Shown here piece after piece: positions 1 through 38,177 of a DNA stretch of 39,509 nt. The notes below the pieces were generated by a model. The model did no database searches and was not told the origin of the DNA. It was given only the letters and a program-made list of their open reading frames with translations. Every line of letters begins with the position of its first letter. Position 1 is the first letter of the stretch. The position numbers were made by a program, and so were the translations under genes. This stretch comes from an uncultured bacterium. Lineage in GTDB: Bacteria > Muiribacteriota > UBA6191. The stretch spans positions 1 through 39,509 of the forward strand of contig CAZYUV010000002.1 of assembly GCA_964650625.1 (NCBI GenBank). Reading direction: 5' to 3'.

Positions 1-1374
1 GAAGGTGGGCATGGTTGGCCGGGGTCTGAGGCAAGACTTCCAAATGATGCGCCACCAATTCAAGCCTTCGATGCTGCAAATATCGCTTGGAAATTCTTTA
101 AAAATCATTCCCGAGAAAAGGAAGTAAGTAATTCTAAATCTAAGAAAAAGCCTCAATCTGAAGTAACTAAAAAAGTAGAAGAGAATCGCAATGATATAAA
201 AAATACTAATAAATTTGACTCAACAGAAAGCAATGAAATTTTAATCAATGATCAAACTATCCGAAAACTACAAACCCAGAGTAGCTCCATTTACGCTAGA
301 ACCAATAATGATAAACAAGTGGAACTTAATTCGATTTCAAATCAGCCACGTACAAACGTAAGTCAAGACCGTAATCAATCTTGCAAATTAGGACAGTTAA
401 AAGACATACCAACTAAGAACGGATCTTACAGCCAATTATGGATTTGTTCAAAAAAAGGTAAGAGAGGTACATTAAAGCGTAACTATAATTTAGTAATACC
501 AAAACTAGAAAACAGAAGAGAATCAGGACTTCTTTTAGTACTGCACGGCGGAGGTGGAAAGCCGGATGCTATAGCAAAAAGATCCAATTTTCATAGCTAC
601 GGACAAAAGTACGGTTTTGTAACTGTTTATCCTGAAGGCTACAAAAAGAAATGGAACAGTGGCCATGCAGGAACGCAAGCAGCTGAAGCTGAGATTGATG
701 ATGTTCATTTCCTATCCACATTAATCGATGAACTTCTACAAAAGTTAAAATTAGATGAACAAAAAGTATTTGTGACAGGACATTCTAATGGCGGCATGAT
801 GACCCATCGTCTTGGCGCAGAGGCAAGTCAGAAAATCGCTGGAATTGCTCCTGTAGCCGGAACTGTAGGTGGATTTGCAAATATTCATGATAGAAATAGC
901 TATTACCATATACCTAAAGCATCATCGAATATAAAGGTATTTGCAATTCATGGAAAATGCGACACCTCAGTTACGTATGATGGTTCTCGAGGGCCCACAA
1001 CCAACCGTCGACGGGAAGACATCTCTACCATGGAAGGTATAAAATTCTGGGCAAATGTAAATTCTTGTGGAAGGTCAACAACCCATAACTTTCGTCGAGA
1101 TAAACATTTACCTATGACTACTTACTCCTATGGCTGCGCAAAAAAGAATAAACAAACCGCATCTGTAAAACTGCTTACAATCAACGATACAGGACATGTT
1201 TGGCCTGATGGATCGGGCGAACGTAAAACAAAAATTAAGCCTCAAAATAAGAAAAAGATCAAAAAAGCAATTCAATGGGGTCAGCCAAGAGCTTGCTCAT
1301 TAGAAATGATGATCAACGCTTCAAAGCGAATTGATGCAGCTGAGGTCATCGTTCAGGAGTTTTTTAAGAAATAA
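1..1374 (+). CDS. PHB-depolymerase/LpqC-family esterase, 5'-truncated by the window edge; apparently two tandem esterase domains
   Basis: Frame 1 is open from nt 1 with no stop before the GTG at 319 used by the ORF track. Nt 1-120 translate to EGGHGWPG...AANIAWKFFKNH, the typical C-terminal end of this esterase family. The same motif pair recurs at the end of the second domain (TGHVWPDG...EVIVQEFFKK). The second domain has LVLHGGGG and a GHSNGG (GxSxG) nucleophile elbow. Confidence 0.7.
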   Translation, partial: EGGHGWPGSEARLPNDAPPIQAFDAANIAWKFFKNHSREKEVSNSKSKKKPQSEVTKKVEENRNDIKNTNKFDSTESNEILINDQTIRKLQTQSSSIYARTNNDKQVELNSISNQPRTNVSQDRNQSCKLGQLKDIPTKNGSYSQLWICSKKGKRGTLKRNYNLVIPKLENRRESGLLLVLHGGGGKPDAIAKRSNFHSYGQKYGFVTVYPEGYKKKWNSGHAGTQAAEAEIDDVHFLSTLIDELLQKLKLDEQKVFVTGHSNGGMMTHRLGAEASQKIAGIAPVAGTVGGFANIHDRNSYYHIPKASSNIKVFAIHGKCDTSVTYDGSRGPTTNRRREDISTMEGIKFWANVNSCGRSTTHNFRRDKHLPMTTYSYGCAKKNKQTASVKLLTINDTGHVWPDGSGERKTKIKPQNKKKIKKAIQWGQPRACSLEMMINASKRIDAAEVIVQEFFKK

Positions 1375-1395
1375 ATCTCCTTCAGTTTGATTAGT

Positions 1396-1428
1396 GGGGT
1401 TTAGTAATGGTACTAAACCCCATTTTTT
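1396..1428. terminator. Rho-independent terminator between convergent genes (bidirectional hairpin)
   Basis: Perfect 11-bp stem GGGGTTTAGTA (1396-1406) / TACTAAACCCC (1411-1421) with loop ATGG, followed by ATTTTTTATTATTT. It lies between the esterase stop (1374) and the STAS gene stop (1430). Confidence 0.7.
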
Positions 1429-1429
1429 A

Positions 1430-1777
1430 TTATTTAGATATCAAGGCCTTGGCTTCATCTAAACTACCCACAATCCTAAATGAATCACTTAGGGAAAGTG
1501 CACGAAATACAGCCATAATATTGTCTGAACAAGCACACAAAATCATTTTTCCATTGTGAGATTTTAGTAATTGCTGATGAGTAAATAAAGAGCCAATAAC
1601 TATGGAAGAGAGAGTAGTGACAGCACTAAAGTCTAATATCAATTGGAACTTAGAAGCTTCAAAATCCTTCTTTAATTGTTTTTTTAATTGTTCATAAGAA
1701 GAATGATTAAGACCACCAGTCAAAATCAAAATACTTAGCTGATTTTCAGTTGAAAATTCTTTGATTTCAAAACTCAA
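1430..1777 (-). CDS. STAS-domain protein (SpoIIAA/RsbV-like anti-sigma-factor antagonist)
   Basis: 115 aa, the typical size. LILDFSAVTTLSSIVIGSL matches the DxSxVxxxDSSGxxxL region that carries the phosphorylatable Ser. Its start overlaps the upstream gene stop by 4 nt (1774-1777). Confidence 0.75.
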   Translation of the reverse strand: MSFEIKEFSTENQLSILILTGGLNHSSYEQLKKQLKKDFEASKFQLILDFSAVTTLSSIVIGSLFTHQQLLKSHNGKMILCACSDNIMAVFRALSLSDSFRIVGSLDEAKALISK

Positions 1778-3777
1778 TTTAATTCTCCCGGTTTCATGTT
1801 CAATTGAAGTGCAAGTTCATGCAACTCCTGAATCTCTTCATCTGAAATAATCACACAATATTTGGTAGAAGACTTTAAGTATAGCTCCTGATTTACCAAT
1901 GAAATTCCAAAATAACTTTCACTTGAAGGCTCCAAACTTTTCTTCATTCGAGTGACAGCCATTCTAATAGTTCCTTCGTCTAGTTCGGGGTCATATTTTT
2001 TACGATAGATAGACTCATAAAGCTCACTCCAACTAAATCGTCTTCCTGGAAAAAAGGCTAAAAGGCAAAAGAGTAAAAGCGTGATTCTAGATTTTTCAAT
2101 TTTCAATTGCCCCGCTGTTTTTTCAAAATAACACTCCTTATGAAAATCAAAAAATAAATCATAACTTTTACGTCTTTCATACTCTAGATCTAAAGTTTTG
2201 ATATGTGATACCACTAACTCACCATTGCGATTGAAACATAAGCAGAATTTACGATCGATTTCTTTGAAAAGAAAGTCAATGCTTGGCGACAGTGCTGTAT
2301 TCATTGACTTAGATACATTTCGCTTGAAGCGCAGATAAGTCCAGGGCGAACTAATTTTCTGCTCAAGATAACCCAAAAAAATCATATACTCACTTGCAAC
2401 CGTATTGGAATGTTCTATTTCAAATTCTTCGAGTTCTTGCATTGGCTTTCTAGCTGCTTCAAAGTCACCACTTAGAAGACGATCTATACCCTCCATCAGA
2501 AGCATTTCGATACAAGAATTATCGAAAAGTTTTAATTCTTGCAGAGTATCAATCGCAGACAGAAGATCCAAGCTAGCAAGATGACATAAATACTGCTGCA
2601 AAAGTATTTGAGGTTTTCGTTTCTCACTAACATTTGCGTAAGCATTCATCCAGTAATTTTGTGCTGCATTAAAATTACCCTGATGCAAAAATATTTGAGC
2701 CTGCCAATCATACAAATAAGAAATCAATTCTGGGCCAATCTGCTTTGAATTAGACAGACTCAAAATTCTCAAAAAATGTTGCTGATAAAATTGATCATCC
2801 CTTCTCAATGAGTCTTCAAAGGATGACTCAAGTAAATCATTCATATGAGGCTTTAATTGATCAAAACTAGGATTTTGACTAATAAAATCTGCTCTTTCAT
2901 CCTCGTTATCGAGCAGATAAAACTTTCTAGATATATCTGTTGTTAATTCGAAAAGTCTCTGCCGCTCCTCTTCAGATATTCTGATATTTGCGAAACCACC
3001 ATGAAGAACATATACATCCTCTTGCAAACTCATCCAGCCCTTGTCTAAACCAGGTTTCAATCGTTGCCAAAGAGAATCTATCTGGCATAAGGCCTTAAGT
3101 TCTAAACCTATCGGAAAATAGTCTTTAGAATCTATTTCAAGTTCAATAGAGAGATTGTTAATAAATTCTGACACTAACTGTTCTAGCTGAGGTAATACCT
3201 CCGCCAATTCCCCAAGGTTTTGATCGCAGATCTCAACTAATGCAGCAACAAGACCCCGCAATCCAAAATTATGCTCGCGAATAAACGTCTTTATGCTTAG
3301 GGGCAATCGAATTTGATGTCTATTCTCAAAAAGCATGAGCTCCTGCTCCACCATCATTGCTGAAAGGGCCGAACTCATTGGATAAAAGCCAAGTCGTAAG
3401 ATATTTTTACTTAGCTTTTGTGAGGCATTAGAGCTGAGTAAAAAAATCAAATTTCTCCGATTACCTCTCAAACTCGGTAAAATTTCCATGAATATCTCAG
3501 TAGAGAGATGATCAATGACAAATATACGGTCTTTGTGACTTTTTATGCTTGATAGTAATTCAGGAATATCTAACGTAGAGTCTTTACAATCATAATAAAA
3601 ACTATTCTCAAGATTCTCAGTCAGCCACTTAAAAAAATATGTTTTACCCGTACCATTCAATCCATAGATGTGGAAAGTGCGCATGTCACGGTTCAGTGCA
3701 TCACATAAATTCTGTATAAATTCTGGACTACTGGAGGTAATATTTTCTCTTATCAATTCTAATAAGTTCAAACCCAC
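1774..3777 (-). CDS. STAND-like P-loop ATPase with helical/TPR-like middle region and C-terminal OmpR-type winged-helix DNA-binding domain
   Basis: Walker A is GLNGTGKT and Walker B-like is RIFVIDHL. The C-terminus LLLFCLLAFFPGRRFSWSELYESIYRKKYDPELDEGTIRMAVTRMKKSL...ELYLK follows the Trans_reg_C pattern (LLxxL..pg..vs...L...vw........r.v.v.i.rlRkkL). Confidence 0.6.
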   Translation of the reverse strand: MGLNLLELIRENITSSSPEFIQNLCDALNRDMRTFHIYGLNGTGKTYFFKWLTENLENSFYYDCKDSTLDIPELLSSIKSHKDRIFVIDHLSTEIFMEILPSLRGNRRNLIFLLSSNASQKLSKNILRLGFYPMSSALSAMMVEQELMLFENRHQIRLPLSIKTFIREHNFGLRGLVAALVEICDQNLGELAEVLPQLEQLVSEFINNLSIELEIDSKDYFPIGLELKALCQIDSLWQRLKPGLDKGWMSLQEDVYVLHGGFANIRISEEERQRLFELTTDISRKFYLLDNEDERADFISQNPSFDQLKPHMNDLLESSFEDSLRRDDQFYQQHFLRILSLSNSKQIGPELISYLYDWQAQIFLHQGNFNAAQNYWMNAYANVSEKRKPQILLQQYLCHLASLDLLSAIDTLQELKLFDNSCIEMLLMEGIDRLLSGDFEAARKPMQELEEFEIEHSNTVASEYMIFLGYLEQKISSPWTYLRFKRNVSKSMNTALSPSIDFLFKEIDRKFCLCFNRNGELVVSHIKTLDLEYERRKSYDLFFDFHKECYFEKTAGQLKIEKSRITLLLFCLLAFFPGRRFSWSELYESIYRKKYDPELDEGTIRMAVTRMKKSLEPSSESYFGISLVNQELYLKSSTKYCVIISDEEIQELHELALQLNMKPGELN

Positions 3778-3779
3778 TC

Positions 3780-5702
3780 CTAAACGTCAATTATGAGCAG
3801 TGTCATATCATCAGCTTGCTGTACGCCCTTACGAAATTGCTGCAGATCACCCACTATCTGATTAATACATTCATTAGTAGATAACGATCCAGTAGAGAGA
3901 ATTTTTTCTTTGAATCTATTTGACGAATAACACTCTTTCTTCTGATTTTCTAACTCGATGCATCCATCCGTATATAATACTAATCGATCTCCCCTCAACA
4001 GAAGAACTTTGTCACTCTTATACTTCACATCCTTAACAAGACCAAACGGTAAACCAGCTGTTGATAATTCCTGAATCGTATTATGTCGGACCATGTACAT
4101 ATTATTGTGACCCGAACTACAAAATTTGAACTCATAATTAATATGGTTAAATCGACCTAAAAAACAAGTACAAAAGCTATCTTCAGGTTTGTTCGAGCAA
4201 GCTATATTATTGACTAGTAAAAAAATTTTTTCTAAGTCTAAATCTAAGCTAATTAAGGCGTCCAAGGCCGCTTTAATTCTGGCCCCAAATAGACCGGCTT
4301 GTAAACCTTTTCCAGCTACATCTGCCACGCAAAAATAGGTGTAATCTGATTGATGTGACACAATAAAAAAGTCCCCGGCCACTTGTCTACCTGGTAAAAA
4401 AGAAACGTCCCATTGTATTGAACGGAATTTCTTTACTGATGTAGTCTTTAAAAGTAATTCCTGAGTTTTAGCAGCTAAATCCACATAGTTTTTCTGATTT
4501 AATCTAAAGCTACTTTTTAAGTCATTCTCTACAAATATCTTCTTTAGAGCATAGATTTCATTGACTAAATTATTGAAACTATCGCTGCTAGTTTTATCAA
4601 TTAATGTTTGAATTGATCCCTGTAAATCTAAAACTTGATCAAAATTCTTTTCAATAGGATTCCATTGATTATTCTTCAAGACACTTCTAAATTGATTTAA
4701 TAAACTGTCTTGCGAAACTTTTATCGATTGTAAATTCCTTACGACACCAAAGAGTTTATTTTGTTCTAAAACCACTAGACTTCGATGACTCAGTGTATTA
4801 AACAAAACTTTCACTTCACTAAACTTTGGTTTTATATCAAGCTTAAAACTCTTGCCTGGCATCCACTCTCTAGCTACACCACCTAAGATAAGAAGCTCTC
4901 TCAAAAATAGTCTTAGTGATGCATATATCATGATGAGCACTAATATTAAACTCATCAAAAGTAAGCTAATAATTATTGTATTTCTACGCTTTACCTTTGA
5001 TTCTAAAGCTTTGACATCTGGTTCGAAATTAAAGCGCGCTGAAGAAAACAAGGGATGTCTCTGATAACCATAAAATTTATCTGAATCAGCAACATTTACC
5101 TCAGAAAGTCCTATTAAATTCCATAGTTTTATTGGATCAACTGAAACTGAAAACCCTTTTTGAAGTTTCTCCGAAAACTTATAAAAAAATAAGATCTGCT
5201 TCTGGTCAAATTCAAGCCAATGAAAGCCTTCAATATCCGGTGACATTTTAACTCCGGTCTCAGCTATTTGATCGTTGTAGATCAATTTATAATAGTTTGG
5301 TGAAAGTTTTTTAACGACACGTAACCAAGTATATAAAGGTCCAAACCTACGCTGGTCCGTGTCTGATTTTCGTATATATCTAAAGCAGTTCCTAAAGGTT
5401 GAAAAATTAATTTCACCTGAGCAGTCCGTCGTTTGAAAACTCTCCCAATCATATGAATTTTCCGGCAATCCGAAACTTGTACCAAGTTCTAACAGATCAA
5501 TTTTTCCAAGTAATACTTCACTTGCATTCAGTTTCTGATTAAAAATTTCTACCTCTTTACTCACTTTATCTGAAAATGCTCTGATCTCTGTCTCTATCTC
5601 AACATTAAGCTTTTGAGAATATCCTCCCCAAAAATGAAAAATAAAAAAACTAAAGCCCGGCACTACTAAAGCAATACAAGCAATCAAAACTCGTTTAAGC
5701 AT
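3780..5702 (-). CDS. Membrane-anchored SpoIIE/RsbU-type PP2C serine phosphatase with extracytoplasmic sensor region
   Basis: An N-terminal TM and a second TM (IIISLLLMSLILVLIMIYASL) bracket a ~230-aa region. C-terminal PP2C motifs are AGDFFIV, ADVAGKGLQAG, LVLYTDGCIE and ADDMTLLIIDV. Confidence 0.8.
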   Translation of the reverse strand: MLKRVLIACIALVVPGFSFFIFHFWGGYSQKLNVEIETEIRAFSDKVSKEVEIFNQKLNASEVLLGKIDLLELGTSFGLPENSYDWESFQTTDCSGEINFSTFRNCFRYIRKSDTDQRRFGPLYTWLRVVKKLSPNYYKLIYNDQIAETGVKMSPDIEGFHWLEFDQKQILFFYKFSEKLQKGFSVSVDPIKLWNLIGLSEVNVADSDKFYGYQRHPLFSSARFNFEPDVKALESKVKRRNTIIISLLLMSLILVLIMIYASLRLFLRELLILGGVAREWMPGKSFKLDIKPKFSEVKVLFNTLSHRSLVVLEQNKLFGVVRNLQSIKVSQDSLLNQFRSVLKNNQWNPIEKNFDQVLDLQGSIQTLIDKTSSDSFNNLVNEIYALKKIFVENDLKSSFRLNQKNYVDLAAKTQELLLKTTSVKKFRSIQWDVSFLPGRQVAGDFFIVSHQSDYTYFCVADVAGKGLQAGLFGARIKAALDALISLDLDLEKIFLLVNNIACSNKPEDSFCTCFLGRFNHINYEFKFCSSGHNNMYMVRHNTIQELSTAGLPFGLVKDVKYKSDKVLLLRGDRLVLYTDGCIELENQKKECYSSNRFKEKILSTGSLSTNECINQIVGDLQQFRKGVQQADDMTLLIIDV

Positions 5703-7989
5703 CGAAACCTTTCTGGATAGTAATACTTAAATGAATTGCATCGTCAGAGGTAGCTAATTCGAATCCAATTTCCTTAGATAATGAGACAGTCTCCACAAGA
5801 CTTGGCGAGTTCCCAAACTTAGAACTGAAACTAGACCAGTCTTTTACAATTTCAGACTTATTGATTCGAAAACGAATATCACCCTTACCTACATATTCAA
5901 CACAAGCGGAATTACTGTCAGCATTTATCAAAACAAAAGATTGATCAATTCCCAAATCTCGACTGATTTCATAAGCATAGGAACTTAATCGATCAAAACA
6001 GGTCTGTGTATCAGAATTTGTAACAACAAGACCGTGCATATAAGATCTAAGAGCATGGGTTAAAATCGTATTAGAGGGAGGTTCTGAATGACTTCGTACT
6101 AGTATCAAGTAAAAACCACCTGTGTATTCGACTAACTCATAGCCATCACCTGCACTGTGTGCCCTGGGACTAATTTTGAAGTCTAATGCCAAATCTTTAA
6201 TAATTACCTTATTAGATTGAAGCATTAAATCATTGAATTCTCTGCTTGAATCAATATCAGATGTTAAACCTAAAGAGAGTTTTTCAGAAATATGTATACT
6301 AAGACTTAAATAAATTTTTTCTACTTGTTCAGCACATGCATTTAAAATTTTCTTTGCTAGAGGTAATGAAGACTTGACTCTGAAATAAATCGGAAATTTA
6401 AGATTTAATTCATTCTCTAAGCTGGACCTTACATCCTCTGAGGGCATCACTGAAATAAATTGCTTATTTTTCACAGGAAATTCAATCTTTTCGATGAAGG
6501 CTCCAGAAAATAAGCTCTTTAATATGCGATTTATTTGCTCCAGCATTTGATCTGCAGATAATTCCGTATTCTGTAATACTTGCAAACTGGCTGATCTGAA
6601 AATTAATTCCTTTTGAAATACTTTCTGATTTGTTTTCATCTTGGTCAAAGCCAGATCTACTTCAGCAAGTTCCTTAGGAAGGCTCTCGATAGTTTCTGTA
6701 TTACCCGACAGTAAATCATCGATGTTTTTTTCTAGAGGAAATATCAGCCAGCGAAGCACAATAAGAACAATTGAAACATGTAAAAATATAAAAAATATAA
6801 AAATAAGAATCCATTTTTTATTGATTTTTTTGGACTCCTCAGATGAATTCCAATCCGGCCAAAAAACATACTTTCCAAGCAAGGCCGAAAATATCTTCAG
6901 TTTAGAACTGACATCTAGATAGAATTTCTCTTTAAAGCCTTTGGAATTCAGCAAATTAAGAAGTTTCGCTCTAATCAATTGCTTATCAACTTTAATTATT
7001 GAAACGCCATCAGCTACCAAACTTATAGCATTTTTGGGTTTATTTGGCCAAGGTCGATTGTATAACTGAACATGTACCCAATAGCCTTGAATATCAACAA
7101 ACTGAATCGTAGCCTTCATTGGATCAATCTCTAATCTGTTCTTAAAGAATTTATCAAAACGCATAGACGTAGGTATTAGAGCTATGGAACTAGACAGAGC
7201 GTTTGTTACCAACAGAAAATCTAAATACGAAAAACTTTGAAAGATTTGCGGTAATGCTTCTGTCTGACGCTGAAGTAATTCTGCAAAAGAATTAGGTATA
7301 TCATTTCGCATATTTAGCCAAAAAATACGAATTTCTTCCTCATCAACCTTACTATGTAAATAAGAATCATAATGAAATTTCATTACCGTCTTTTTGAGAC
7401 AATCCGTGTAATCATTATGATTTAAGACTTGATCATATTTTGAATCTAGTCCATCTAGCGCAATCCAATCTTGTTTGTTGATCCAGATTTTCTGAAGGTC
7501 CCTATCTACACCTAGTTGAATTGATAATTGATCTAATTTGGTATTTATTTCATCATCGCGCTGACATCTCCTGGGTCTTCCTCTTATTGAGGGTATGAAG
7601 TTTTTACCCGCTAAATAGCGACGAAAAGCTCGGAATAAATTTCGTTTAGTGTAGGTATTTAGCAAAATCAATTCATGATGGATTTCACTAAGCGATAATT
7701 GAGCTTTTACAGAATCAATATTTTTACGCAATTCAAATTCATTAACTCCCTGATCGTCCAAAGTATGAACTTCTATCAATTTGTCCAATAAGTCCGCGAA
7801 GAGTTTCTGCACTTGGGATTCAAGATCTATAATTTCAGCCTGTTTTGAATTTGTAAGATTCTGAAGACGATCGGAATACTCAATTTTAGCCATTGAATAG
7901 CAGTAAACACCACAAAAGCATAAGCCTAAGACGAAGCTCACTAGCAGGCTTACTCTAAGAAAATTTTTGAGAGTTAAATGATGCATCAA
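5695..7989 (-). CDS. Membrane sensor protein with large extracytoplasmic domain and divergent SpoIIE/PP2C-like C-terminal domain
   Basis: An N-terminal TM and a second TM (WILIFIFFIFLHVSIVLIVLRWLIF) are present. The C-terminus has AGDGYEL and SDDAIHLSITI, resembling the first and last PP2C motifs, but the DxxGHG and YTDG motifs are not recognisable. An 8-nt overlap with the downstream phosphatase gene indicates co-translation. Confidence 0.5.
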   Translation of the reverse strand: MMHHLTLKNFLRVSLLVSFVLGLCFCGVYCYSMAKIEYSDRLQNLTNSKQAEIIDLESQVQKLFADLLDKLIEVHTLDDQGVNEFELRKNIDSVKAQLSLSEIHHELILLNTYTKRNLFRAFRRYLAGKNFIPSIRGRPRRCQRDDEINTKLDQLSIQLGVDRDLQKIWINKQDWIALDGLDSKYDQVLNHNDYTDCLKKTVMKFHYDSYLHSKVDEEEIRIFWLNMRNDIPNSFAELLQRQTEALPQIFQSFSYLDFLLVTNALSSSIALIPTSMRFDKFFKNRLEIDPMKATIQFVDIQGYWVHVQLYNRPWPNKPKNAISLVADGVSIIKVDKQLIRAKLLNLLNSKGFKEKFYLDVSSKLKIFSALLGKYVFWPDWNSSEESKKINKKWILIFIFFIFLHVSIVLIVLRWLIFPLEKNIDDLLSGNTETIESLPKELAEVDLALTKMKTNQKVFQKELIFRSASLQVLQNTELSADQMLEQINRILKSLFSGAFIEKIEFPVKNKQFISVMPSEDVRSSLENELNLKFPIYFRVKSSLPLAKKILNACAEQVEKIYLSLSIHISEKLSLGLTSDIDSSREFNDLMLQSNKVIIKDLALDFKISPRAHSAGDGYELVEYTGGFYLILVRSHSEPPSNTILTHALRSYMHGLVVTNSDTQTCFDRLSSYAYEISRDLGIDQSFVLINADSNSACVEYVGKGDIRFRINKSEIVKDWSSFSSKFGNSPSLVETVSLSKEIGFELATSDDAIHLSITIQKGFDA

Positions 7990-8222
7990 TGAATGTTACA
8001 ATTAAGTGCTAAGGCCACCAAAATAGGCTAAATAATAGCTCCATGGGAAAAACTCTTAAGTAAACACTCGATTGGACTAGGAGAGCAAGTTACAGACTAC
8101 ACTAATTTTTTTTGTAAAAATGAAATATTAAAGATTCAATTGGATAAATTCAAAATTAATACTCAGTTTTTACTCCACTTGAGTGTAAATTATCAGAATA
8201 AGTAGAAAGGTAGTTTTAGCGT

Positions 8223-8638
8223 TTAGTTTGGATTAGTTTTAGGCTTGTACTCAAGTCTTCCAAAAATAGCTTCTGGATCACTTAATTTTCGATTTTTACG
8301 GATCTCTAAATGTAAATGAATTCCCGTGGAGCAGCCGGTTGTACCCACTGTACCAACCCGTTCTCCTGCTAATACTCTTTGACCTTCTTTAAGATTTCCA
8401 TCGCCCATCGAAACTAAAGGTCTGTTTCTAATTCCCGAAATATCTACGGCCGGATGATCTTCAGAAAATCCTTGTACAAGTACTCCTAAGCAAGGCTTAA
8501 CCATTCTTGAATAATCGTTAGCTAAAGAATTTTTTTATGAACTTGGTAGCTAATATCGCCGTAAAAAGAATTATCTGCAAAGGTCAGCGTAGCCCATGTA
8601 ATCAATAAAATCAGTTTGATCTGTATTACATATTTCAT
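8223..8638 (-). pseudogene. Small secreted M23 (LytM-type) metallopeptidase, split by a frameshift at a homopolymer
   Basis: ORF 8223-8504 has the M23 motifs HPAVD (HxxxD) and GTTGCSTGIHLHLEIR (HxH). Upstream, in another frame (8638-8522), lies MKYVIQIKLILLITWATLTFADNSFYGDISYQVHKKIL*, a signal-peptide-like sequence. The two frames meet at a run of 7 A on the coding strand (T7 at 8530-8536 on +). One extra A would fuse them. Confidence 0.55.
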
Positions 8639-8793
8639 TTGAGCCCTAGTGTAGTTTTACTTGCAGTAATTTCCAATACGGAACATCTTATTATTTTGTT
8701 CTAAATTGGATCCAATTTTTTATCGCATCCTCCTAAATCCCATTCCTACATAATTTTAGGTACAATAAATAAAGACTTTAACTCATAGACAAC

Positions 8794-12040: not shown

Positions 12041-12114
12041 GAGCGAAAGACGAGATTTGAACTCGCGACCCTCTCGTTGGCAACGAGATGCGCTACCGCT
12101 GCGCCACTTTCGCT
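12041..12114 (-). tRNA. tRNA-Gly (anticodon GCC)
   Basis: The reverse complement reads AGCGAAA-GT-GGCG-CAGCGGTA-GCGC-A-TCTCG-TTGCCAA-CGAGA-GGGTC-GCGAG-TTCAAAT-CTCGT(C)-TTTCGCT-C. It has a 7-bp acceptor stem, a GTTCAAAT T-loop and the anticodon loop TTGCCAA. CCA is not encoded. Confidence 0.9.
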
Positions 12115-12271: not shown

Positions 12272-15200
12272 ATGCAAATAAATAAAGATGTAAAATCGGA
12301 TTTTGTCGAACGCATTGTTCATGAACTGCTTGCAATCATCTTAAGAAAAGGTGCTTTTTCTCCGGCTGAAAAAAAAGTTTTTAATAAACTTATTCGACTT
12401 CTTGAATTGACACCGTCTCAACTCGAGAAAATCAAACAGAAAGTTCAATCTAAAATACATAAAAATCAAGAGTTAAGCCCTGCCGATCTACGGAATTACT
12501 TAAATAAGTTCAGAGAAAGTCTATGTAAGATTCTCGACCCTATCGAAGTTGATGGGCTAGTCGACTCTTTGGCTGAAGCATTCGACATAGATCTAAAGAG
12601 TATCGGTCGACTAAATCAATTAGTTATACCCCAAAAAATCAAAACCAAGTACATCGTGGACTGTGGAGAATTTAGCCTCGACCGTCGTGGATATTATGAA
12701 GATAAGTTATTCGCTTTAAGTAATCTTATGAGTGAAAAAGCCCACAATGGTTACTTAAAGCTACTAACCCTACGCACTAATGGAGAGCATGGTAAAGCTA
12801 TTGCATGGCTTAATAAAACTGGTACTCTTGATGAAACTCTACGCCTTTATTTGACCGCTAGGTTTCATCTTGAATGTCAAGAATATGATCGTGCACGATT
12901 TTTACTTTTTCAAAGCCACCAAATGGGTTTGCCAACTGATCTTTTTGAAGAGGAGATGTTTTTCATAGACTGCGCTAAATTGGACTTCAAAGAAAGTATC
13001 AAACGCTGGAGCAAATTACGTCAACTTAAATCAGATTCAGTGACCTTGAAACAGGCTAACGTGGTACTACGATCTCTTATCGAAGGACTAATCGCTCGTA
13101 ACATGATGCATATTGCACAACGCAATGTAGAGCTATCCAAAATTTACTATCCTCAACTTAAATCCGATTTTGAATTCTACAAACCGCTATCAAAAAAATT
13201 CTTTAAAGATTTTATTCCAGCTTTTTACGGCCGGAGATTCCTAATAATCCAGACTTTATTGGCTATTTCTATACTTTATCTTAGCTCGATTAACTTTTCC
13301 GATATCCAAGAGGTTTGTAAATATCTACTTGGACTAGAAATTCAAGGTAAACTCATCAAACCAACCATTTATCAATACTTTCGTTGTTTAATTGAAGCAT
13401 TTTTCTGGATTGCCCTTTTACCTTTGATTTATTTCAATTTCCGAATATCAAAAAACTTTTGGAACCCTCAAAAAAACGGATATATCACTCTATTTAATCG
13501 CTATATACAAGTCGTTGCATTCTCAAAAGCTTATCACTTCTCACGTGATAAGTTTATAAACAACCCACTCCTAATTACTCAAGATCGAATCTCTTTAGCT
13601 GGAAGCTTCTGGTTGAGAGTATTCCCATTCTGGCCAGGCATTCATTATATGTATGGTAAAAATCTATTATCGGGCAAAAGTATAACGATTCCACTTTTTG
13701 GAATATCTTGTGGCAAACAATTTTCTAAAAGTCTATCACTAAGCTCTCAAACTATAGCTCGGCCAATTAATCGTGTTGGTGTGCGAATCTGTCAAATTTG
13801 TAACATTCTCGAGAGAGTTTCGCGTCTTAAAAATTGGATGATAACCTATGTATCCATGGGGTTAATAATACCATCCGTCTTTTACGCTTCACATATGGAT
13901 GGATTCAACCAAAACCGTGTCATAATTTTCTGGGTAATATGGAGTTTTATTCTAGTTTTAATACCATTGATTGGAATAAAACTATCAAAAAACATATCGC
14001 AACTTAAAACCTTAATTCATTTTAATAAACCTGATGTATTAATCAGTTTAATTGTCTTTTATTATTTTGCTGAGCACTATTATCTGATGGGTTTACTGGG
14101 AGTATTTCCTACACTTATTTTTGGTGGATTTTTTTGCCTTCTTTTGTTCTACAAATCGAAAGATTCTCAACAACAAGAGCTTCTGGCTAATTTTTACAGA
14201 AGTGAAGTTTTCAAGAAGCTCAAATATGAACCTACAGATCCGTCCCCAAGTTGGTCAGGCTGTCATCTTGGCTTTTACTCACCTTTACCCTTGTTTCAGC
14301 AAAGTCTTTTAAGTTTTGAAAAAAATATAATTTTGGTTAGAAGTTTATTTGGCTTAATTATCAGTACCCATTGTTGGATAACAAAAAACAGCCCTCTAAT
14401 TGTTCACACTGGCAGTTCAAAGCGTAGATGCAATATTGATGGGGGGGAGATAATCACATCACTTTCATCAGATAAATTACGCCAAACACTATACGCTCTC
14501 AACATTACCAATTTATTCAAAACTTCTAAAAAAGCAAAACGGCCTGCCAACATATACTATTTTTTAATACCAATAATTATAACTACTTATGGAGTCTGGA
14601 CATTCTTAGTAAGCACTGACTTTCATACGCATAAATATGAACCTGTGGACACAAGCATTAATAATTTAATGCTTCTCGAAAATAAGAGTCTTTTTGTTCG
14701 AAATCAAAACATCGACCAATTGCTATACCTTCCAGAAGCAAAGATTTATAAACTTGATTATGACGATGAAAACCGTTTGGTGACGGTAATACAAAATGAT
14801 GAGCTAAGCTATGGAGAAATCGAAGAAGTAATACAAGCATCTTTCAACTTCTCAAATCATCCCCTCCAATCCATTAATACTCCATATTTTATTCGTAAAA
14901 AAGGAAAACGCAGTAATCTCTTAGATATAGCAAGTTGGAATATTTTTCACAAAAACAAGAAGGTAAATTGGGATTTATTTGGCTCCGAACTAGAGCAATA
15001 TTGTCAGGCAATAGGTATGCAGGTAATACCTCATTATGGCAATTATCGATGTGGATTTAATTTCTCAGATAATCACATCGCTAATTTTCTTAGAAGCAAA
15101 CAGTACGTACCGGAAATTTTCAGTATCAAATTATTAGAAATTGCCCTAAATGCTGACGGATCACTTCTTCAAATTATGGAGCCGGTTCACAAACAAAATA

Positions 15201-16246
15201 GGCGTCTCGCACTAGCTTCAATAAAAACCTTGAAAAGTCCCTGGAAATTCATCGATGAAAAATTACGTAAAAAACCTTCATTCATATTCGAAGCACTACA
15301 AATTAATGGAAGAATTTTATCCTTTTTATCTAAGGGCCTCCGAGGAGATCGTGACTATGTAATTGCTGCACTCAAACAAGACCCCGAAGCGTACAAAGCA
15401 ATGGACTCTGAATTATGGAATGACTTAGGAATTATCAATTTAGTTTTGGACCAAGAAGGTCTTGCATTGAAATTTGTTTCTGAAAAGTTTCGTAATCGGA
15501 AATCTGTTGTACTAAGAGCAGTCAAACAGAATGGATTGGCAATTCAATATGCCTCACCTGAATTGAGTAATGATTCCGAAGTCCAAAAAGTCTCAAAATT
15601 TATAGAGGAAGAAATCGAATTTAATTTTATTCCATCAGGGAAATTTTTTGATCCACTGATCAAACAAGAAAAAGCAATCGATGGATTTTTTCTGTCTAGC
15701 TATGAAATACGTAGAGAAGTATTTGAAAAACATTTGGGTTATAACCCAGGTACTAATAAAACAACTGATCACCCAGTAGATAATATTAGTATGAAAGATA
15801 TATCTAGATTTTTAGACTATCTAAATACTAAATCCGGAAAACAACTTTATCGTTTACCCACGCCTCAAGAATGGGAATACGCGACTAAAGCAAACACAAA
15901 ATCAACTTATTTTTATGGTGATAACTCAGAATCTATGAAAGATTACGCTTGGTATCCCTTCAATGCTAAAGGTAGTTCGCAACCAGTTGGAAAAAAACTT
16001 CCAAATCCCTGGGGACTATATGATGTTTATGGCAATCTATTTGAAAGAGTATCTCCATTTCCAGCACAATATTACAAAGGAAAAGGTTATCGCTTACCAG
16101 GAGTGGCATCCAATACATTAGTTTCTGGTCTCTGCAGTGGGAGTTTTGAATCGGTGATAGTGTATTGTCAGCCTATAACGCCGGATAAAGGTTTTTCCAA
16201 ACGTCATAATGAAATAGGCTTTCGAGTTCTCAGAGTTCTCGACTAG
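12272..16246 (+). CDS. 1324-aa polytopic membrane protein: soluble N-domain, multi-TM core, DUF4116 repeats and C-terminal FGE-sulfatase (SUMF1-like) domain
   Basis: Several hydrophobic segments lie between aa ~320-640 and at ~760-780. DUF4116-type repeats include DRDYVIAALKQDPEAYKAM, GLALKFVSEKFRNRKSVVLRAVKQNGLAIQYASPELSNDSEV. FGE-type motifs are YRLPTPQEWEYA, YAWY, NPWGLYDVYGNLFE and IGFRVLR. Confidence 0.6.
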   Translation: MQINKDVKSDFVERIVHELLAIILRKGAFSPAEKKVFNKLIRLLELTPSQLEKIKQKVQSKIHKNQELSPADLRNYLNKFRESLCKILDPIEVDGLVDSLAEAFDIDLKSIGRLNQLVIPQKIKTKYIVDCGEFSLDRRGYYEDKLFALSNLMSEKAHNGYLKLLTLRTNGEHGKAIAWLNKTGTLDETLRLYLTARFHLECQEYDRARFLLFQSHQMGLPTDLFEEEMFFIDCAKLDFKESIKRWSKLRQLKSDSVTLKQANVVLRSLIEGLIARNMMHIAQRNVELSKIYYPQLKSDFEFYKPLSKKFFKDFIPAFYGRRFLIIQTLLAISILYLSSINFSDIQEVCKYLLGLEIQGKLIKPTIYQYFRCLIEAFFWIALLPLIYFNFRISKNFWNPQKNGYITLFNRYIQVVAFSKAYHFSRDKFINNPLLITQDRISLAGSFWLRVFPFWPGIHYMYGKNLLSGKSITIPLFGISCGKQFSKSLSLSSQTIARPINRVGVRICQICNILERVSRLKNWMITYVSMGLIIPSVFYASHMDGFNQNRVIIFWVIWSFILVLIPLIGIKLSKNISQLKTLIHFNKPDVLISLIVFYYFAEHYYLMGLLGVFPTLIFGGFFCLLLFYKSKDSQQQELLANFYRSEVFKKLKYEPTDPSPSWSGCHLGFYSPLPLFQQSLLSFEKNIILVRSLFGLIISTHCWITKNSPLIVHTGSSKRRCNIDGGEIITSLSSDKLRQTLYALNITNLFKTSKKAKRPANIYYFLIPIIITTYGVWTFLVSTDFHTHKYEPVDTSINNLMLLENKSLFVRNQNIDQLLYLPEAKIYKLDYDDENRLVTVIQNDELSYGEIEEVIQASFNFSNHPLQSINTPYFIRKKGKRSNLLDIASWNIFHKNKKVNWDLFGSELEQYCQAIGMQVIPHYGNYRCGFNFSDNHIANFLRSKQYVPEIFSIKLLEIALNADGSLLQIMEPVHKQNRRLALASIKTLKSPWKFIDEKLRKKPSFIFEALQINGRILSFLSKGLRGDRDYVIAALKQDPEAYKAMDSELWNDLGIINLVLDQEGLALKFVSEKFRNRKSVVLRAVKQNGLAIQYASPELSNDSEVQKVSKFIEEEIEFNFIPSGKFFDPLIKQEKAIDGFFLSSYEIRREVFEKHLGYNPGTNKTTDHPVDNISMKDISRFLDYLNTKSGKQLYRLPTPQEWEYATKANTKSTYFYGDNSESMKDYAWYPFNAKGSSQPVGKKLPNPWGLYDVYGNLFERVSPFPAQYYKGKGYRLPGVASNTLVSGLCSGSFESVIVYCQPITPDKGFSKRHNEIGFRVLRVLD

Positions 16247-28273: not shown

Positions 28274-29416
28274 ATGGTATTTGAGAGTTTCAACTGGCTA
28301 TTCTTTATTGCCTTAATTTTAGTACATTTTGTAGTTACAGGCCGAATTCGTTTGGGATTGTCGTATTTGAGTGGCATTTATTTCGTTTACGCCTATTCTC
28401 CAACAAGTCTAGCAATTTTATCTCCGGTGGCATTATTAATTATTGGGCCGTACCTATTTCAAGAATCTGAAACTCGAAATCAATTCTACGGTTTCATGTG
28501 GCTCGCCATGTGGGGGCTATACTATCTATTCGTTAGTAATCATAACTTTGATCAAAGGGAATACTTCCCATATGAAATTTTAGTGTTAGGAGCATACAAT
28601 CTGGCAAGGTTCTATCATGTATTTAATGATTTAAATTTCCTACGATACAGAGGACCAAAATGGGATGAAATTTTAGCCTATTTATTTTTTCCTCCAATCC
28701 TTTTTTGTGGTCCACTCGAGAAAATTCAAGAGTTTTTGAAATTTTACAAGAATCACGCATGCTATAAATCAATTGACTACAAAGGCTCTGCTAAGCTCCT
28801 TAGTATTGCGGTTTTTCAGGGAGCTATCGCAGAATTCTGCTCAACCGCACTGACTCCCGATTTAGTAGATTTTTCAGAAATAACACTATTCCCACTTATA
28901 GTCTATGTCTTGGGCATAGGATGGGAAATTCATTTTAGATTAGCCTCATACATCAATTTTACGCGTGGTTTCGCTTGGCTAATGGGTTATCATTTTGAAA
29001 AACCTAATTTCCAAGCACCTTATTCGGCTAGATCTGTGGCGGGATTCTGGTCACGTTGGAATATGTCACTTTCCAGATGGACAAGAGAGTATCTTTTCTA
29101 CGGAAATATAGAAGACTTTAGTGCAAAAAGAGTTATCATCGTTCTCGGTTTATTTTGGTGTTTAGTGGGTATACTTCATGGCATAAGTTGGCATTACTTC
29201 ACTTGGGGGCTTTTAATGGGCTCAACTATACTCTTTAATTTTGCCTACATTTATGCCCGCTATCACTGGGATTGGTTAATGAAAGTGGATGCTCAATTCA
29301 TACCTTTATCAGTCAAAAGAGCAGTCACAATTGTATGGATTCATGCATCTTGTATTTTGCTGGTTCCCGAATGCGAAGATATAATTAAGTCATTACATAG
29401 AATTCTCTCTCTTTAG
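28274..29416 (+). CDS. MBOAT-superfamily membrane O-acyltransferase-like protein (short, divergent), paralogue A
   Basis: Polytopic membrane protein. FFPPILFCGPLEKIQEF, SVAGFWSRWNMSLSRWTREYLFY and LVGILHGISWHYFTWGLLMG align by eye with the AlgI/DltB motifs (FWRRWHISLSxWxRDYxY; GGLWHGAxWxFxxWGxxHG). Confidence 0.65.
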   Translation: MVFESFNWLFFIALILVHFVVTGRIRLGLSYLSGIYFVYAYSPTSLAILSPVALLIIGPYLFQESETRNQFYGFMWLAMWGLYYLFVSNHNFDQREYFPYEILVLGAYNLARFYHVFNDLNFLRYRGPKWDEILAYLFFPPILFCGPLEKIQEFLKFYKNHACYKSIDYKGSAKLLSIAVFQGAIAEFCSTALTPDLVDFSEITLFPLIVYVLGIGWEIHFRLASYINFTRGFAWLMGYHFEKPNFQAPYSARSVAGFWSRWNMSLSRWTREYLFYGNIEDFSAKRVIIVLGLFWCLVGILHGISWHYFTWGLLMGSTILFNFAYIYARYHWDWLMKVDAQFIPLSVKRAVTIVWIHASCILLVPECEDIIKSLHRILSL

Positions 29417-29446
29417 AAACAAGCTGGAACAGGTTACAATATTCGT

Positions 29447-30478: not shown

Positions 30479-30505
30479 GTACCACTTTCAAAACTTTTGA
30501 CTACG

Positions 30506-31645: not shown

Positions 31646-31865
31646 AAGTCGTACCCGCCATCCAATCTATCGAGATTACAGACAAGTTCTGATAGAAAAA
31701 GATTATTTTTGTCACCTATCTGCCGTGGAACAAAGGAATCTGTTCCAATATAATCTTTCAAGCGTTCAAATGTATAATTTCTGCACCAAATTGCAGCAAG
31801 GAACTGTTCTTTGTCAAACCCCAAATCAGAGGTTTATAATGATCACCTGCTTGAAGGAGGTTTCC

Positions 31866-33838: not shown

Positions 33839-33849
33839 AAGTTAGTTAA

Positions 33850-37722: not shown

Positions 37723-37725
37723 ACT

Positions 37726-38169: not shown

Positions 38170-38177
38170 GTGGTTAT

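What the first reader, a model, noticed from the sequence alone, without database searches (positions are those of the whole stretch)
1430..7989. Partner-switching-like operon without kinase or sigma factor, built around a P-loop/TPR/wHTH regulator
Four overlapping or abutting minus-strand genes (8-nt overlap, 2-nt gap, 4-nt overlap) end at a strong terminator. They encode a membrane sensor with a divergent PP2C-like domain, a membrane sensor with an intact SpoIIE/RsbU PP2C domain, and a 667-aa protein with an N-terminal Walker ATPase, a helical/TPR-like middle and a C-terminal OmpR-type winged helix. The fourth gene encodes a STAS antagonist. Classical modules pair STAS with an RsbW/SpoIIAB-type GHKL kinase/anti-sigma and a sigma factor; neither is present here. 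The arrangement suggests the STAS phosphorylation state (set by envelope-sensing phosphatases) is read out by a STAND-like transcription factor rather than an anti-sigma factor. The domain order (ATPase-TPR-wHTH) is the reverse of SARP/AfsR-type regulators.
Basis: partly seen in the sequence, partly recalled or inferred. Interest (0 to 1): 0.7.

Follow-up and report, generated by a model that had tools for sequence, protein, structure and literature searches.

The report
Phosphatase–STAS module wired to STAND regulator
Four co-transcribed genes in an uncultured marine bacterium pair two membrane phosphatase-type sensors and a small STAS switch protein with an ATPase-driven DNA-binding regulator instead of the usual kinase and sigma factor, and the same set of genes recurs in several gene orders, which points to a previously undescribed way of reading out this common bacterial switch.

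Summary
Window 1430-7989 (minus strand) carries four tightly coupled genes.

- **g1:** a 2-TM membrane protein whose C-terminus is a degenerate PP2C domain, detectable only by profile-profile comparison.
- **g2:** a 2-TM membrane protein with an intact SpoIIE-type PP2C domain.
- **g3 (REG):** a 667-aa cytosolic protein with a P-loop STAND-like NTPase, a helical middle and a C-terminal OmpR/PhoB winged helix. The winged helix is confirmed by a confident AlphaFold model and Foldseek.
- **g4:** a single-domain STAS protein. Its Ser58 aligns with the SpoIIAA phosphoserine.

I found no RsbW-type kinase or sigma factor in the 39.5-kb window or in any related locus.

The gene set recurs in about 9 of 12 lineages that carry a REG homolog, in at least four gene orders. 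REG and STAS often overlap. One REG paralog is instead coupled to an SRPBCC protein.

The most likely mechanism is that the envelope-sensing phosphatases set the STAS phosphorylation state, and STAS then gates the STAND regulator. This rests on genomic context only. Direct STAS-REG binding and the identity of the kinase are untested.

I rate it a new variant of partner switching, in a rare, uncultured lineage. Interest is about 0.6.

The parts
5695..7989 (-). g1: 764-aa inner-membrane protein. TM helices lie at about residues 7-34 and 389-420, with a periplasmic domain of about 355 aa between them. The cytoplasmic C-terminus is a degenerate PP2C-like domain. The real start is probably the ATG at 7986.
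   Evidence: ORF. TM segments. No Pfam hit in 3 of 3 homologs. Orthologs in L001, L004, L024 and L014.
5698..6267 (-). Pseudo-PP2C domain of g1 (about residues 575-764). GDGY is partly kept. The metal-binding DxxGxG loop is replaced by a family-specific PP-x-ST-L-T-H-x-L-R-x-Y motif. The last PP2C strand, which carries the DD motif, is absent.
   Evidence: hhalign of 4 g1 C-termini against 10 PP2C domains: probability 94%, E 1.4e-7. Alignment. An earlier comparison of 3 against 3 sequences was not significant.
3780..5702 (-). g2: 640-aa inner-membrane protein. TM helices lie at about residues 1-27 and 239-274, with a periplasmic domain of about 210 aa. It has a cytoplasmic linker and an intact SpoIIE/RsbU-type PP2C phosphatase domain. 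It overlaps g1 by 8 nt.
3783..4346 (-). PP2C (SpoIIE family) catalytic domain of g2, residues 453-640. Conserved residues are GD444F, D461-V-A-G-K-G, D579-G and D631-D632.
   Evidence: PF07228, E 6e-39. Invariant columns. Alignment with 9 other PP2C domains.
1774..3777 (-). g3 (REG): 667-aa cytosolic regulator with an N-terminal STAND-like P-loop NTPase, a helical (TPR-like) middle and a C-terminal OmpR/PhoB winged helix. It starts 2 nt after g2 ends.
3640..3663 (-). Walker A motif of g3 (G39-L-N-G-T-G-K45-T). Walker B (hhhhD89-H90) follows at residues 85-90.
   Evidence: Invariant columns in A1. G44 and K45 are invariant in the wider family alignment A7.
1777..2280 (-). C-terminal DNA-binding module of g3 (residues 500-667): an OmpR/PhoB-type winged helix with a C-terminal strand-helix extension. 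It is nearly identical among homologs that share only about 50% identity overall.
   Evidence: A1 conservation. AlphaFold pLDDT 82.7, pTM 0.77. Foldseek top hits are the GlnR, PhoP, CovR and PhoB DNA-binding domains. Trans_reg_C scores above threshold in homologs.
1430..1777 (-). g4: 115-aa single-domain STAS protein. It has a TTG start and overlaps g3 by 4 nt.
   Evidence: PF01740, E 2.6e-13. PDB profile hits to SpoIIAA and TM1442.
1604..1606 (-). Codon of STAS Ser58, which aligns with the phosphorylated Ser58 of SpoIIAA.
   Evidence: HMMER alignment to 1th8_B. The Ser is invariant in 8 of 8 module-linked STAS proteins.
1393..1424 (.). 12-14-bp GC-containing hairpin between the convergent operon and the esterase gene. 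The T-run is only on the + strand side.
8223..8637 (-). Decayed M23 peptidase gene, a conserved upstream neighbour of the module. Here it has a frameshift and is missing about 37 aa.
   Evidence: Intact orthologs upstream of the module in L001, L004, L012 and L017.
319..1374 (+). PHB-depolymerase-like esterase gene, a conserved neighbour. It is convergent here and in L001, L004 and L024, and co-directional in L014. It is a candidate target gene.
8059..8090 (-). TAACTTGC-N18-TGTTTACTT, shared with L024 upstream of g1. It is the probable operon promoter. This is a lead only.

Best explanation
This is a conserved four-component signalling module.

**Components.**
- Two inner-membrane proteins with large periplasmic domains act as envelope or extracellular sensors. 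g2 is an active SpoIIE/RsbU-type PP2C phosphatase. g1 is a paralogous PP2C that has become a pseudo-phosphatase in this clade.
- The likely substrate is the single-domain STAS protein g4, at Ser58.
- g3 (REG) is a STAND-type ATPase with a helical sensor region and an OmpR/PhoB winged helix.

**Proposed mechanism.** One phospho-form of STAS, probably the dephosphorylated form as in other partner switches, binds REG, with which it is translationally coupled. Binding controls REG's nucleotide-dependent oligomerisation and DNA binding. REG would therefore occupy the place taken by the RsbW/sigma pair in classical modules. The STAS kinase is not encoded in the module and is presumed to lie elsewhere. 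Candidate target genes are the operon itself and the conserved neighbouring genes for secreted hydrolases (M23 peptidase and a PHB-depolymerase-like esterase).

**Shown:** gene anatomy, domain identities, the conserved Ser, and conserved linkage across rearranged loci.

**Inferred:** the phosphatase-to-STAS relationship (from family knowledge), STAS-to-REG binding, the direction of regulation, and the regulon.
For: **Domains**
- STAS and SpoIIE.
- g1 as a degenerate PP2C.
- REG NTPase.
- REG winged helix.

**STAS.** The Ser aligned with the SpoIIAA phosphoserine is invariant in 8 of 8 linked STAS proteins.

**Coupling.** The 8-nt g1/g2 overlap and the 4-nt g3/g4 overlap are kept in L001, L004 and L024.

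**Gene orders seen in related loci**
- L014: REG-STAS-pseudoPP2C-PP2C-esterase.
- L017: M23-REG-PP2C-PP2C-STAS.
- L016: REG-PP2C-PP2C-FG-GAP-STAS.
- L006: the first four of those genes; the locus ends before any STAS.
- L007: STAS overlaps REG by 23 nt.
- L008: REG-STAS.
- In total, about 9 of 12 REG lineages with readable context carry STAS and/or PP2C genes in the same cluster.

**Small-partner pattern.** A REG paralog (L018) is translationally coupled to a different small protein of the SRPBCC family. This suggests that the slot next to REG is for a small partner.

**No kinase or sigma factor.** No kinase or sigma factor was found in the window or in the Pfam-annotated flanks of L001, L004, L006, L014, L017 and L024.

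**Literature**
- Several STAS-only proteins act through unknown non-sigma targets (PMC8256260).
- A STAS-like protein can itself be a phospho-regulated DNA-binding repressor (CapS, PMC13373217).
- From my own knowledge: the STAND regulator MalT is gated by partner proteins (MalK, MalY, Aes), and AfsR is gated by Ser/Thr phosphorylation.
Against: - There is no direct evidence for a STAS-REG contact. No multimer prediction was possible and there are too few sequences for co-variation analysis.
- Phosphorylation needs a kinase, and none is linked in any locus.
- All evidence is genomic context from an apparently narrow set of uncultured lineages. Only 42 representatives were found among 1.84 billion proteins, and 3 loci among 185,579 species genomes. 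Part of the synteny could therefore be shared ancestry.
- Three REG lineages (L010, L013, L018) lack STAS and PP2C neighbours.
- No conserved operator was found.
- The full-length REG model is of low confidence (pLDDT 51), so the TPR-like middle rests on helical prediction and on TPR hits in distant homologs only.
Confidence: 0.5

Rival explanations
1. **Canonical partner switch with unlinked parts.** g2 and g4 feed an RsbW-type kinase/anti-sigma factor and a sigma factor encoded elsewhere in the genome. REG is only a co-expressed transcription factor, for example an autoregulator of the operon or a regulator of the neighbouring hydrolase genes. It would have its own ligand and no direct contact with STAS.
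For: - Dispersed Rsb-type genes are common in many bacteria (my own knowledge).
- The conserved phosphorylatable Ser implies a kinase that is absent from every locus examined.
- Some REG homologs stand alone or pair with another protein, so REG can work without STAS.
Against: - The REG-STAS adjacency, often with overlapping reading frames, survives several independent rearrangements. That is hard to explain without a direct functional link.
- No sigma or anti-sigma gene is near the module in any of the loci.
Confidence: 0.22
2. **REG is the phosphatase substrate.** REG would be phosphorylated on Ser/Thr by an unlinked (Hanks-type) kinase, as AfsR is by AfsK, and dephosphorylated by g2. STAS would act as an adaptor or as a regulator of the phosphatases rather than as the phospho-switch.
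For: - Precedent of AfsR/AfsK (my own knowledge). AfsR appears among the structural neighbours of the DNA-binding domain (8hvr_I).
- REG and two PP2C genes are directly adjacent, with STAS separated from them, in L016 and L017.
Against: - SpoIIE/RsbU-family PP2Cs characteristically act on STAS proteins through specific docking (PMC11418112 abstract).
- The STAS Ser is invariant.
- REG-STAS pairs occur on short contigs without an adjacent PP2C on the sequenced side.
Confidence: 0.1
3. **REG doubles as the kinase.** The P-loop NTPase domain of REG would phosphorylate STAS Ser58. One protein would then replace both RsbW and the sigma factor, and the module would be self-contained.
For: - No GHKL kinase was found in any of about 10 loci.
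- Walker A is invariant in the STAS-linked REGs.
- P-loop protein kinases exist (HprK/P, BY-kinases; my own knowledge).
Against: - No STAND or AAA+ NTPase is known to be a protein kinase.
- The domain matches NB-ARC, NACHT and AAA+ switch ATPases.
- The SRPBCC-coupled paralog also keeps a P-loop match (AAA_16).
- Absence of a kinase from a locus is weak evidence.
Confidence: 0.07

Closest known systems
RsbU-RsbV-RsbW-SigB and SpoIIE-SpoIIAA-SpoIIAB-SigF partner-switching modules
   Same: A SpoIIE/RsbU-family PP2C phosphatase is encoded with a single-domain STAS protein that keeps the phosphorylatable Ser. The phosphatase is the signal-input component.
   Different: There is no GHKL Ser kinase/anti-sigma factor and no sigma factor in the locus. 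There are two membrane-anchored PP2C paralogs with periplasmic domains, one of them catalytically degenerate. The linked output is a STAND-type NTPase with an OmpR-type DNA-binding domain.
Non-canonical STAS-only systems (SypE/SypA, RbaVW, HmpUVW, BtrUVW; HsbA and SiaABCD from my own knowledge)
   Same: The STAS phosphorylation state is thought to control something other than a sigma factor. For several of these systems the direct target is unknown (PMC8256260).
   Different: Those systems still encode an RsbW-like kinase. None is reported to be linked to a STAND/winged-helix regulator. Here the gene linkage nominates a specific candidate target.
CapK/CapS (PMC13373217)
   Same: Anti-sigma-antagonist-type (STAS-like) signalling is used directly for transcription control without a sigma factor.
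   Different: In CapS the STAS-like protein is itself the DNA-binding repressor and is phosphorylated by an adjacent RsbW-like kinase. Here STAS is a stand-alone 115-aa domain, DNA binding resides in a separate 667-aa STAND protein, phosphatases rather than a kinase are linked, and there is no match to defence systems.
MalT/LAL-family STAND transcription activators
   Same: The domain order is the same: N-terminal STAND NTPase, helical/TPR-like sensor region, C-terminal DNA-binding domain. MalT is gated by small ligands and by inhibitory partner proteins.
   Different: The DNA-binding domain here is an OmpR/PhoB winged helix, not a LuxR/GerE HTH. There is no significant sequence match to the MalT family in the window protein. 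Only TPR_MalT hits below the gathering score are seen, in distant homologs.
AfsR / large SARP regulators
   Same: A combination of an OmpR-type winged helix, a STAND NTPase (NB-ARC) and TPR repeats. AfsR activity is modulated by Ser/Thr phosphorylation.
   Different: The domain order is reversed: the winged helix is C-terminal here. There is no BTAD domain. The phylogenetic context differs (low-GC uncultured marine bacteria rather than actinomycetes).

Membership tests
Partner-switching module (Rsb/SpoIIA type) | PPM/PP2C phosphatase of the SpoIIE/RsbU family with intact metal-binding residues | tested here: met
   g2: PF07228, E 6e-39. GD, DVAGKG, DG and DD are conserved.
Partner-switching module (Rsb/SpoIIA type) | Single-domain STAS antagonist with the conserved phosphorylatable Ser | tested here: met
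   g4: PF01740, E 2.6e-13. Ser58 aligns with SpoIIAA Ser58 and is invariant in 8 of 8 linked homologs. Phosphorylation itself was not tested.
Partner-switching module (Rsb/SpoIIA type) | GHKL Ser kinase/anti-sigma factor (RsbW/SpoIIAB) as the STAS partner | tested here: not met
   None was found among ORFs of 100 aa or more in the 39.5-kb window or in the flanks of L001, L004, L006, L014, L017 and L024. The only HATPase_c in the window is histidine-kinase-like and fused to a PilB/MshE-type ATPase 16 kb away. Whole genomes could not be searched.
Partner-switching module (Rsb/SpoIIA type) | Cognate alternative sigma factor as output | tested here: not met
   There is no sigma-70-family domain in the window or in the flanks of the module-bearing loci. 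An ECF-type sigma gene lies about 3.7 kb upstream of the STAS-less paralog in L018 only.
STAND NTPase signalling proteins | P-loop NTPase with Walker A and Walker B, related to NACHT, NB-ARC or AAA_16/22 | tested here: met
   - Walker A GxxGxGK[TS] and hhhhD are invariant.
- Sub-threshold AAA_14/22 and nSTAND3/6 hits occur in the window clade.
- Homologous N-termini (hhalign 97.6%, E 2.8e-12) hit NACHT, NB-ARC or AAA_22, some above threshold.
- A profile hit to NRC1 NB-ARC spans the whole domain.
STAND NTPase signalling proteins | Helical arm (GxP-type motif, winged-helix subdomain) followed by a repeat sensor domain (TPR, WD40 or LRR) | tested here: inconclusive
   - A G-h-R/P-x-L motif (FGLRGL; GHP or GHxGL in relatives) follows the NTPase core.
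- The middle region is predicted to be all-helical, but at pLDDT below 50-60.
- TPR Pfam hits occur only in distant homologs (P0007, P0014, P0016, P0018).
STAND NTPase signalling proteins | Nucleotide-dependent oligomerisation switch | not testable with these tools
   This needs biochemistry (SEC-MALS with and without ATP, and a K45A mutant).
OmpR/PhoB-family winged-helix DNA-binding domain (Trans_reg_C) | N-terminal beta-sheet, three-helix core and C-terminal beta-hairpin wing fold, with the sequence signature | tested here: met
   - AlphaFold model pLDDT 82.7.
- The top 50 Foldseek PDB hits are all OmpR/PhoB-type domains, TM 0.72-0.79, rmsd 2.1-3.2 Å.
- Trans_reg_C is matched weakly in 4 of 4 clade members and above threshold in homologs linked at E 1e-27 to 1e-49.
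OmpR/PhoB response regulators | N-terminal receiver domain phosphorylated on Asp | tested here: not met
   There is no Response_reg hit. The N-terminus is a P-loop NTPase. The protein is therefore not a two-component response regulator.
SARP/AfsR regulators | N-terminal winged helix followed by BTAD, then (in large SARPs) NB-ARC and TPR | tested here: not met
   The winged helix is C-terminal (residues about 540-640). There is no BTAD hit.
MalT/LAL regulators | C-terminal LuxR/GerE-type HTH | tested here: not met
   The C-terminal domain is of the OmpR/PhoB type. There is no GerE hit.
Active PPM/PP2C phosphatase (applied to g1) | Conserved metal-coordinating Asp residues (GD, DxxGxG, DG, DD) | tested here: not met
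   - g1 aligns with PP2C (94%).
- The DxxGxG loop is replaced by [S/A]PP in all four homologs.
- The first Asp is lost in L004.
- The terminal DD strand is missing.
- In distant loci both PP2C paralogs are intact.

The most novel reading that the evidence does not exclude
The module is a self-contained, kinase-less partner switch. The STAND ATPase of the regulator both senses and phosphorylates the STAS protein, replacing RsbW and the sigma factor with one polypeptide. The two envelope-sensing PP2C proteins reverse the phosphorylation. A weaker version is that STAS directly gates STAND oligomerisation. That alone would give the first defined non-sigma, non-kinase target of a STAS-only protein.
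Probability: 0.07. Interest if true: 0.85.

Novelty: new variant of a known kind. Interest (0 to 1): 0.6.

Why it matters
PP2C-STAS pairs are among the most widespread bacterial signalling devices. For several well-studied STAS-only proteins (SypA, RbaV, HmpV, BtrV) the downstream target is still unknown (PMC8256260).

This module nominates a concrete and testable target class: a STAND-type ATPase with an OmpR-type DNA-binding domain. The gene linkage survives several rearrangements. If it is confirmed, three things would follow.

- Partner switching would extend from sigma-factor control to direct control of an oligomerising transcription factor.
- It would give a second example, after MalT, of a STAND regulator gated by a partner protein.
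- It would define an uncharacterised NTPase-TPR-wHTH regulator family, together with an active/pseudo-phosphatase sensor pair.

Its reach is limited because the family is rare and known only from uncultured, mostly marine metagenome lineages.

Tried and rejected
- **Scan of species genomes with the full-length REG alignment.** It found no relatives. A second scan with the C-terminal module found 3 loci, in 2 unnamed 'binchicken' MAGs. The organism could therefore not be named, and a paper search for the one NCBI assembly found nothing.
- **PDB sequence search with the full-length REG profile.** It returned only noise.
- **Full-length AlphaFold model.** It is too poor (pLDDT 51) for a fold search. 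Only the N-terminal P-loop core is reasonably predicted.
- **First hhalign of g1 against g2 (3 sequences each).** It was not significant (E 0.17). It became significant only after adding L014 and six distant PP2C domains.
- **Search for an operator.** No 8-mer is shared across the upstream regions of g1, the esterase gene and M23 in four loci. An apparent ATTGGA enrichment was chosen after the fact and is not consistent across loci, so I rejected it as evidence.
- **Candidate kinase in the window.** The HATPase_c domain at 23766..26714 resembles histidine kinases and is fused to a PilB/MshE ATPase, so it is not RsbW-like.
- **Anti-phage defence reading of the STAND protein.** There is no meaningful PADLOC match.
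- **Riboswitch or sRNA in the leader.** Rfam found only a tRNA-Gly at 12041-12113.
- **Chance adjacency or spurious ORFs.** I rejected this because all four proteins have homologs at 41-58% identity with conserved overlaps.


Full report
**1. What is in the sequence**

The region 1430-7989 holds four minus-strand ORFs. They are g1 (5695..7989, 764 aa), g2 (3780..5702, 640 aa), g3 (1774..3777, 667 aa) and g4 (1430..1777, 115 aa). The junctions are an 8-nt overlap, a 2-nt gap and a 4-nt overlap.

The window has about 36% G+C.

Downstream lies a perfect 12-bp hairpin at 1393-1424 (-17.6 kcal/mol, z = -5.9). Its T-run is on the + strand, so it is a canonical terminator for the convergent esterase gene at 319..1374. 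For the operon transcript it is a hairpin without a U-tract.

**2. Domain identities**

*g4.* This is a STAS domain (PF01740, E 2.6e-13). A profile of three orthologs hits SpoIIAA structures in the PDB. The alignment places Ser58 on the SpoIIAA phosphoserine.

*g2.*
- It has two TM helices that flank a periplasmic domain of about 210 aa.
- Its C-terminal domain is SpoIIE-type PP2C (E 6e-39).
- All metal-binding motifs are conserved.

*g1.*
- It has the same topology as g2, with a periplasmic domain of about 355 aa.
- It has no Pfam match in any of three orthologs.
- A first profile-profile comparison with g2 was not significant.
- After adding a fourth ortholog and six distant PP2C domains, hhalign gave 94% probability (E 1.4e-7) over 137-182 columns.
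- The DxxGxG loop is replaced by a family-specific PP-x-ST-L-T-H-x-L-R-x-Y motif, and the last DD-bearing strand is missing.
- g1 is therefore a pseudo-phosphatase under its own selective constraint.

*g3 (REG).*
- In the window protein itself only sub-threshold AAA and Trans_reg_C hits are seen.
- The family settles the NTPase call. Walker A and Walker B are invariant.
- The N-terminal 210 aa align at 97.6% probability with the N-termini of distant homologs. Those homologs hit NACHT, NB-ARC or AAA_22.
- A profile of the N-termini matches the whole NB-ARC domain of NRC1, as well as AAA+ proteins in the PDB.
- The C-terminal 168 aa are almost identical among homologs that share only about 50% identity overall.
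- They fold with pLDDT 82.7. Every top Foldseek hit in the PDB is an OmpR/PhoB DNA-binding domain, including GlnR, PhoP, CovR and PhoB, with TM 0.72-0.79.
- The middle region is predicted to be helical at low confidence. It carries TPR hits only in distant homologs.

**3. Is the four-gene unit conserved?**

A search of 5.8 billion clustered proteins gave only three relatives of REG. An exhaustive profile search of 1.84 billion representatives gave 42 hits. About a dozen of these share the C-terminal module at E 1e-15 to 1e-264.

| Loci | Gene order |
|---|---|
| L001, L004, L024 (50-53% identity to REG) | M23 peptidase - g1 - g2 - g3 - g4, then a convergent esterase. The 8-nt and 4-nt overlaps are the same as in the window. 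In L024 only the 3' end of the M23 gene is on the contig. |
| L014 | REG - STAS - g1-like - g2-like - esterase |
| L017, L021, L022 | M23 peptidase - REG (NACHT-like) - PP2C - PP2C - STAS |
| L016, L019 | REG - PP2C - PP2C - FG-GAP protein - STAS |
| L006 | REG - PP2C - PP2C - FG-GAP protein. The locus ends before any STAS. |
| L007 | STAS overlapping REG by 23 nt |
| L008 | REG - STAS |

- In the distant loci L006, L016 and L017 both PP2C paralogs keep their catalytic residues. The pseudo-phosphatase state of g1 is therefore derived.
- Three lineages lack STAS and PP2C neighbours (L010, L013, L018).
- In L018 the REG paralog is translationally coupled to an SRPBCC protein instead. This suggests that REG-family proteins generally work with a small partner encoded beside them.
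- The Ser aligned with SpoIIAA Ser58 is invariant in all eight module-linked STAS proteins.

**4. Kinase and sigma factor**

No RsbW/SpoIIAB-type kinase or sigma factor is present among window ORFs of 100 aa or more. None is present in the annotated flanks of the related loci.

The only GHKL domain in the window is histidine-kinase-like. It is fused to a PilB/MshE-type ATPase 16 kb away.

This is absence from loci, not from genomes. Whole genomes could not be searched.

**5. Mechanism**

The best-supported reading (about 0.5) has three steps.
1. The periplasm-sensing PP2C pair sets the phosphorylation state of STAS. This is inferred from what is known of SpoIIE/RsbU-type phosphatases, for example PMC11418112.
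2. STAS in one state binds REG and gates its ATP-dependent oligomerisation and DNA binding. This is inferred from conserved, often overlapping, gene linkage. Two analogies support it: MalT is gated by partner proteins, and AfsR is controlled by phosphorylation (my own knowledge).
3. The kinase is unlinked.

The rivals are:
- a canonical unlinked RsbW/sigma output, with REG merely co-expressed (0.22);
- REG itself as the PP2C substrate (0.10);
- REG's P-loop domain acting as the STAS kinase (0.07).

Candidate targets are the operon and its conserved neighbours, the M23 peptidase gene and the PHB-depolymerase-like esterase gene. I could not define an operator. The only promoter-region elements conserved between pairs of loci are leads, not evidence.

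**6. Comparison with known systems and novelty**

- The module shares the PP2C and STAS parts with Rsb/SpoIIA partner switches. It fails their kinase and sigma criteria at the locus level.
- REG shares its domain order with MalT/LAL regulators but has an OmpR-type DNA-binding domain rather than a LuxR-type one.
- It shares its domain types with AfsR, but in reverse order and without BTAD.
- It is not a response regulator, because it has no receiver domain.
- It has no match to known defence systems.
- Literature searches found no description of a STAS/PP2C module linked to a STAND-wHTH regulator.
- The nearest concepts are STAS-only proteins with unknown targets (PMC8256260) and CapK/CapS, where a STAS-like protein is itself a repressor (PMC13373217).

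I therefore class this as a new variant of a known kind.

**7. Limits**

- All evidence is sequence and context.
- The lineages are uncultured and unnamed.
- The family is rare.
- The middle domain of REG and the periplasmic sensor domains remain structurally undefined.

Noticed in passing
window 8223..8637 (-): The M23 peptidase gene upstream of the operon looks like a pseudogene. Its signal-peptide ORF is out of frame with the catalytic ORF. About 37 aa, including the region of the YAHL motif, are missing relative to the intact orthologs in L004 and L001. An M23 peptidase gene is nevertheless a conserved upstream neighbour of the module, even in the distant loci L012 and L017.
   Followed up: partly
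window 23766..26714 (-): A 982-aa fusion of an MshEN domain (known from MshE as a c-di-GMP-binding domain; my own knowledge) and a PilB/MshE-type T2SSE ATPase with a C-terminal histidine-kinase-like HisKA/HATPase_c module. This architecture is unusual. The module is not RsbW-like.
   Followed up: partly
window 8695..8713 (-); L004 about 2093..2111: The element GGATCCAA-N3-AGAACAAA is conserved (16 of 19 nt) at the same distance upstream of the M23 start in the window and in L004. In the window it is part of the 16-nt palindrome AAATTGGATCCAATTT. It could be an operator or a promoter element.
   Followed up: partly
window 8059..8090 (-); L024 upstream of g1: TAACTTGC-N18-TGTTTACTT is shared between the window and L024, about 70-100 nt upstream of g1. 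It is probably the operon promoter (-35/-10-like). It was not found in L001 or L004.
   Followed up: no
L018:7997-11025: A second REG-family paralog (AAA_16 / TPR_MalT / Trans_reg_C, 821 aa) occurs in the same MAG as L016. A 188-aa SRPBCC (Polyketide_cyc2) protein follows it with a 4-nt overlap, in place of STAS. The small partner therefore appears to be swapped between paralogs.
   Followed up: partly
window 319..1374 (+); L001, L004, L024, L014: A PHB-depolymerase-like esterase gene always flanks the module in the window clade. It is convergent in four loci and co-directional in the permuted L014. It is a candidate regulon member.
   Followed up: partly
window 5698..6267 (-) and orthologs: The g1 pseudo-phosphatase family carries its own conserved motif, PP-x-(S/N)-T-(I/L/M)-L-(T/S)-H-x-L-(R/S)-x-Y, where PP2C enzymes have the DxxGxG metal loop. 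This suggests a selected non-catalytic function, for example binding STAS or g2.
   Followed up: partly
window 12272..16246 (+) and 18761..20722 (-): Two large proteins carry FGE-sulfatase (formylglycine-generating-enzyme-like) domains. One of them also has TPR and DUF4116 repeats. Their function here is unknown.
   Followed up: no
window 28274..39473: A cluster of lipid or polyketide-like genes: two MBOAT acyltransferases, DUF1702, an SDR, a 1290-aa protein with no Pfam match, a FabA-like dehydratase and a ketoacyl synthase.
   Followed up: no
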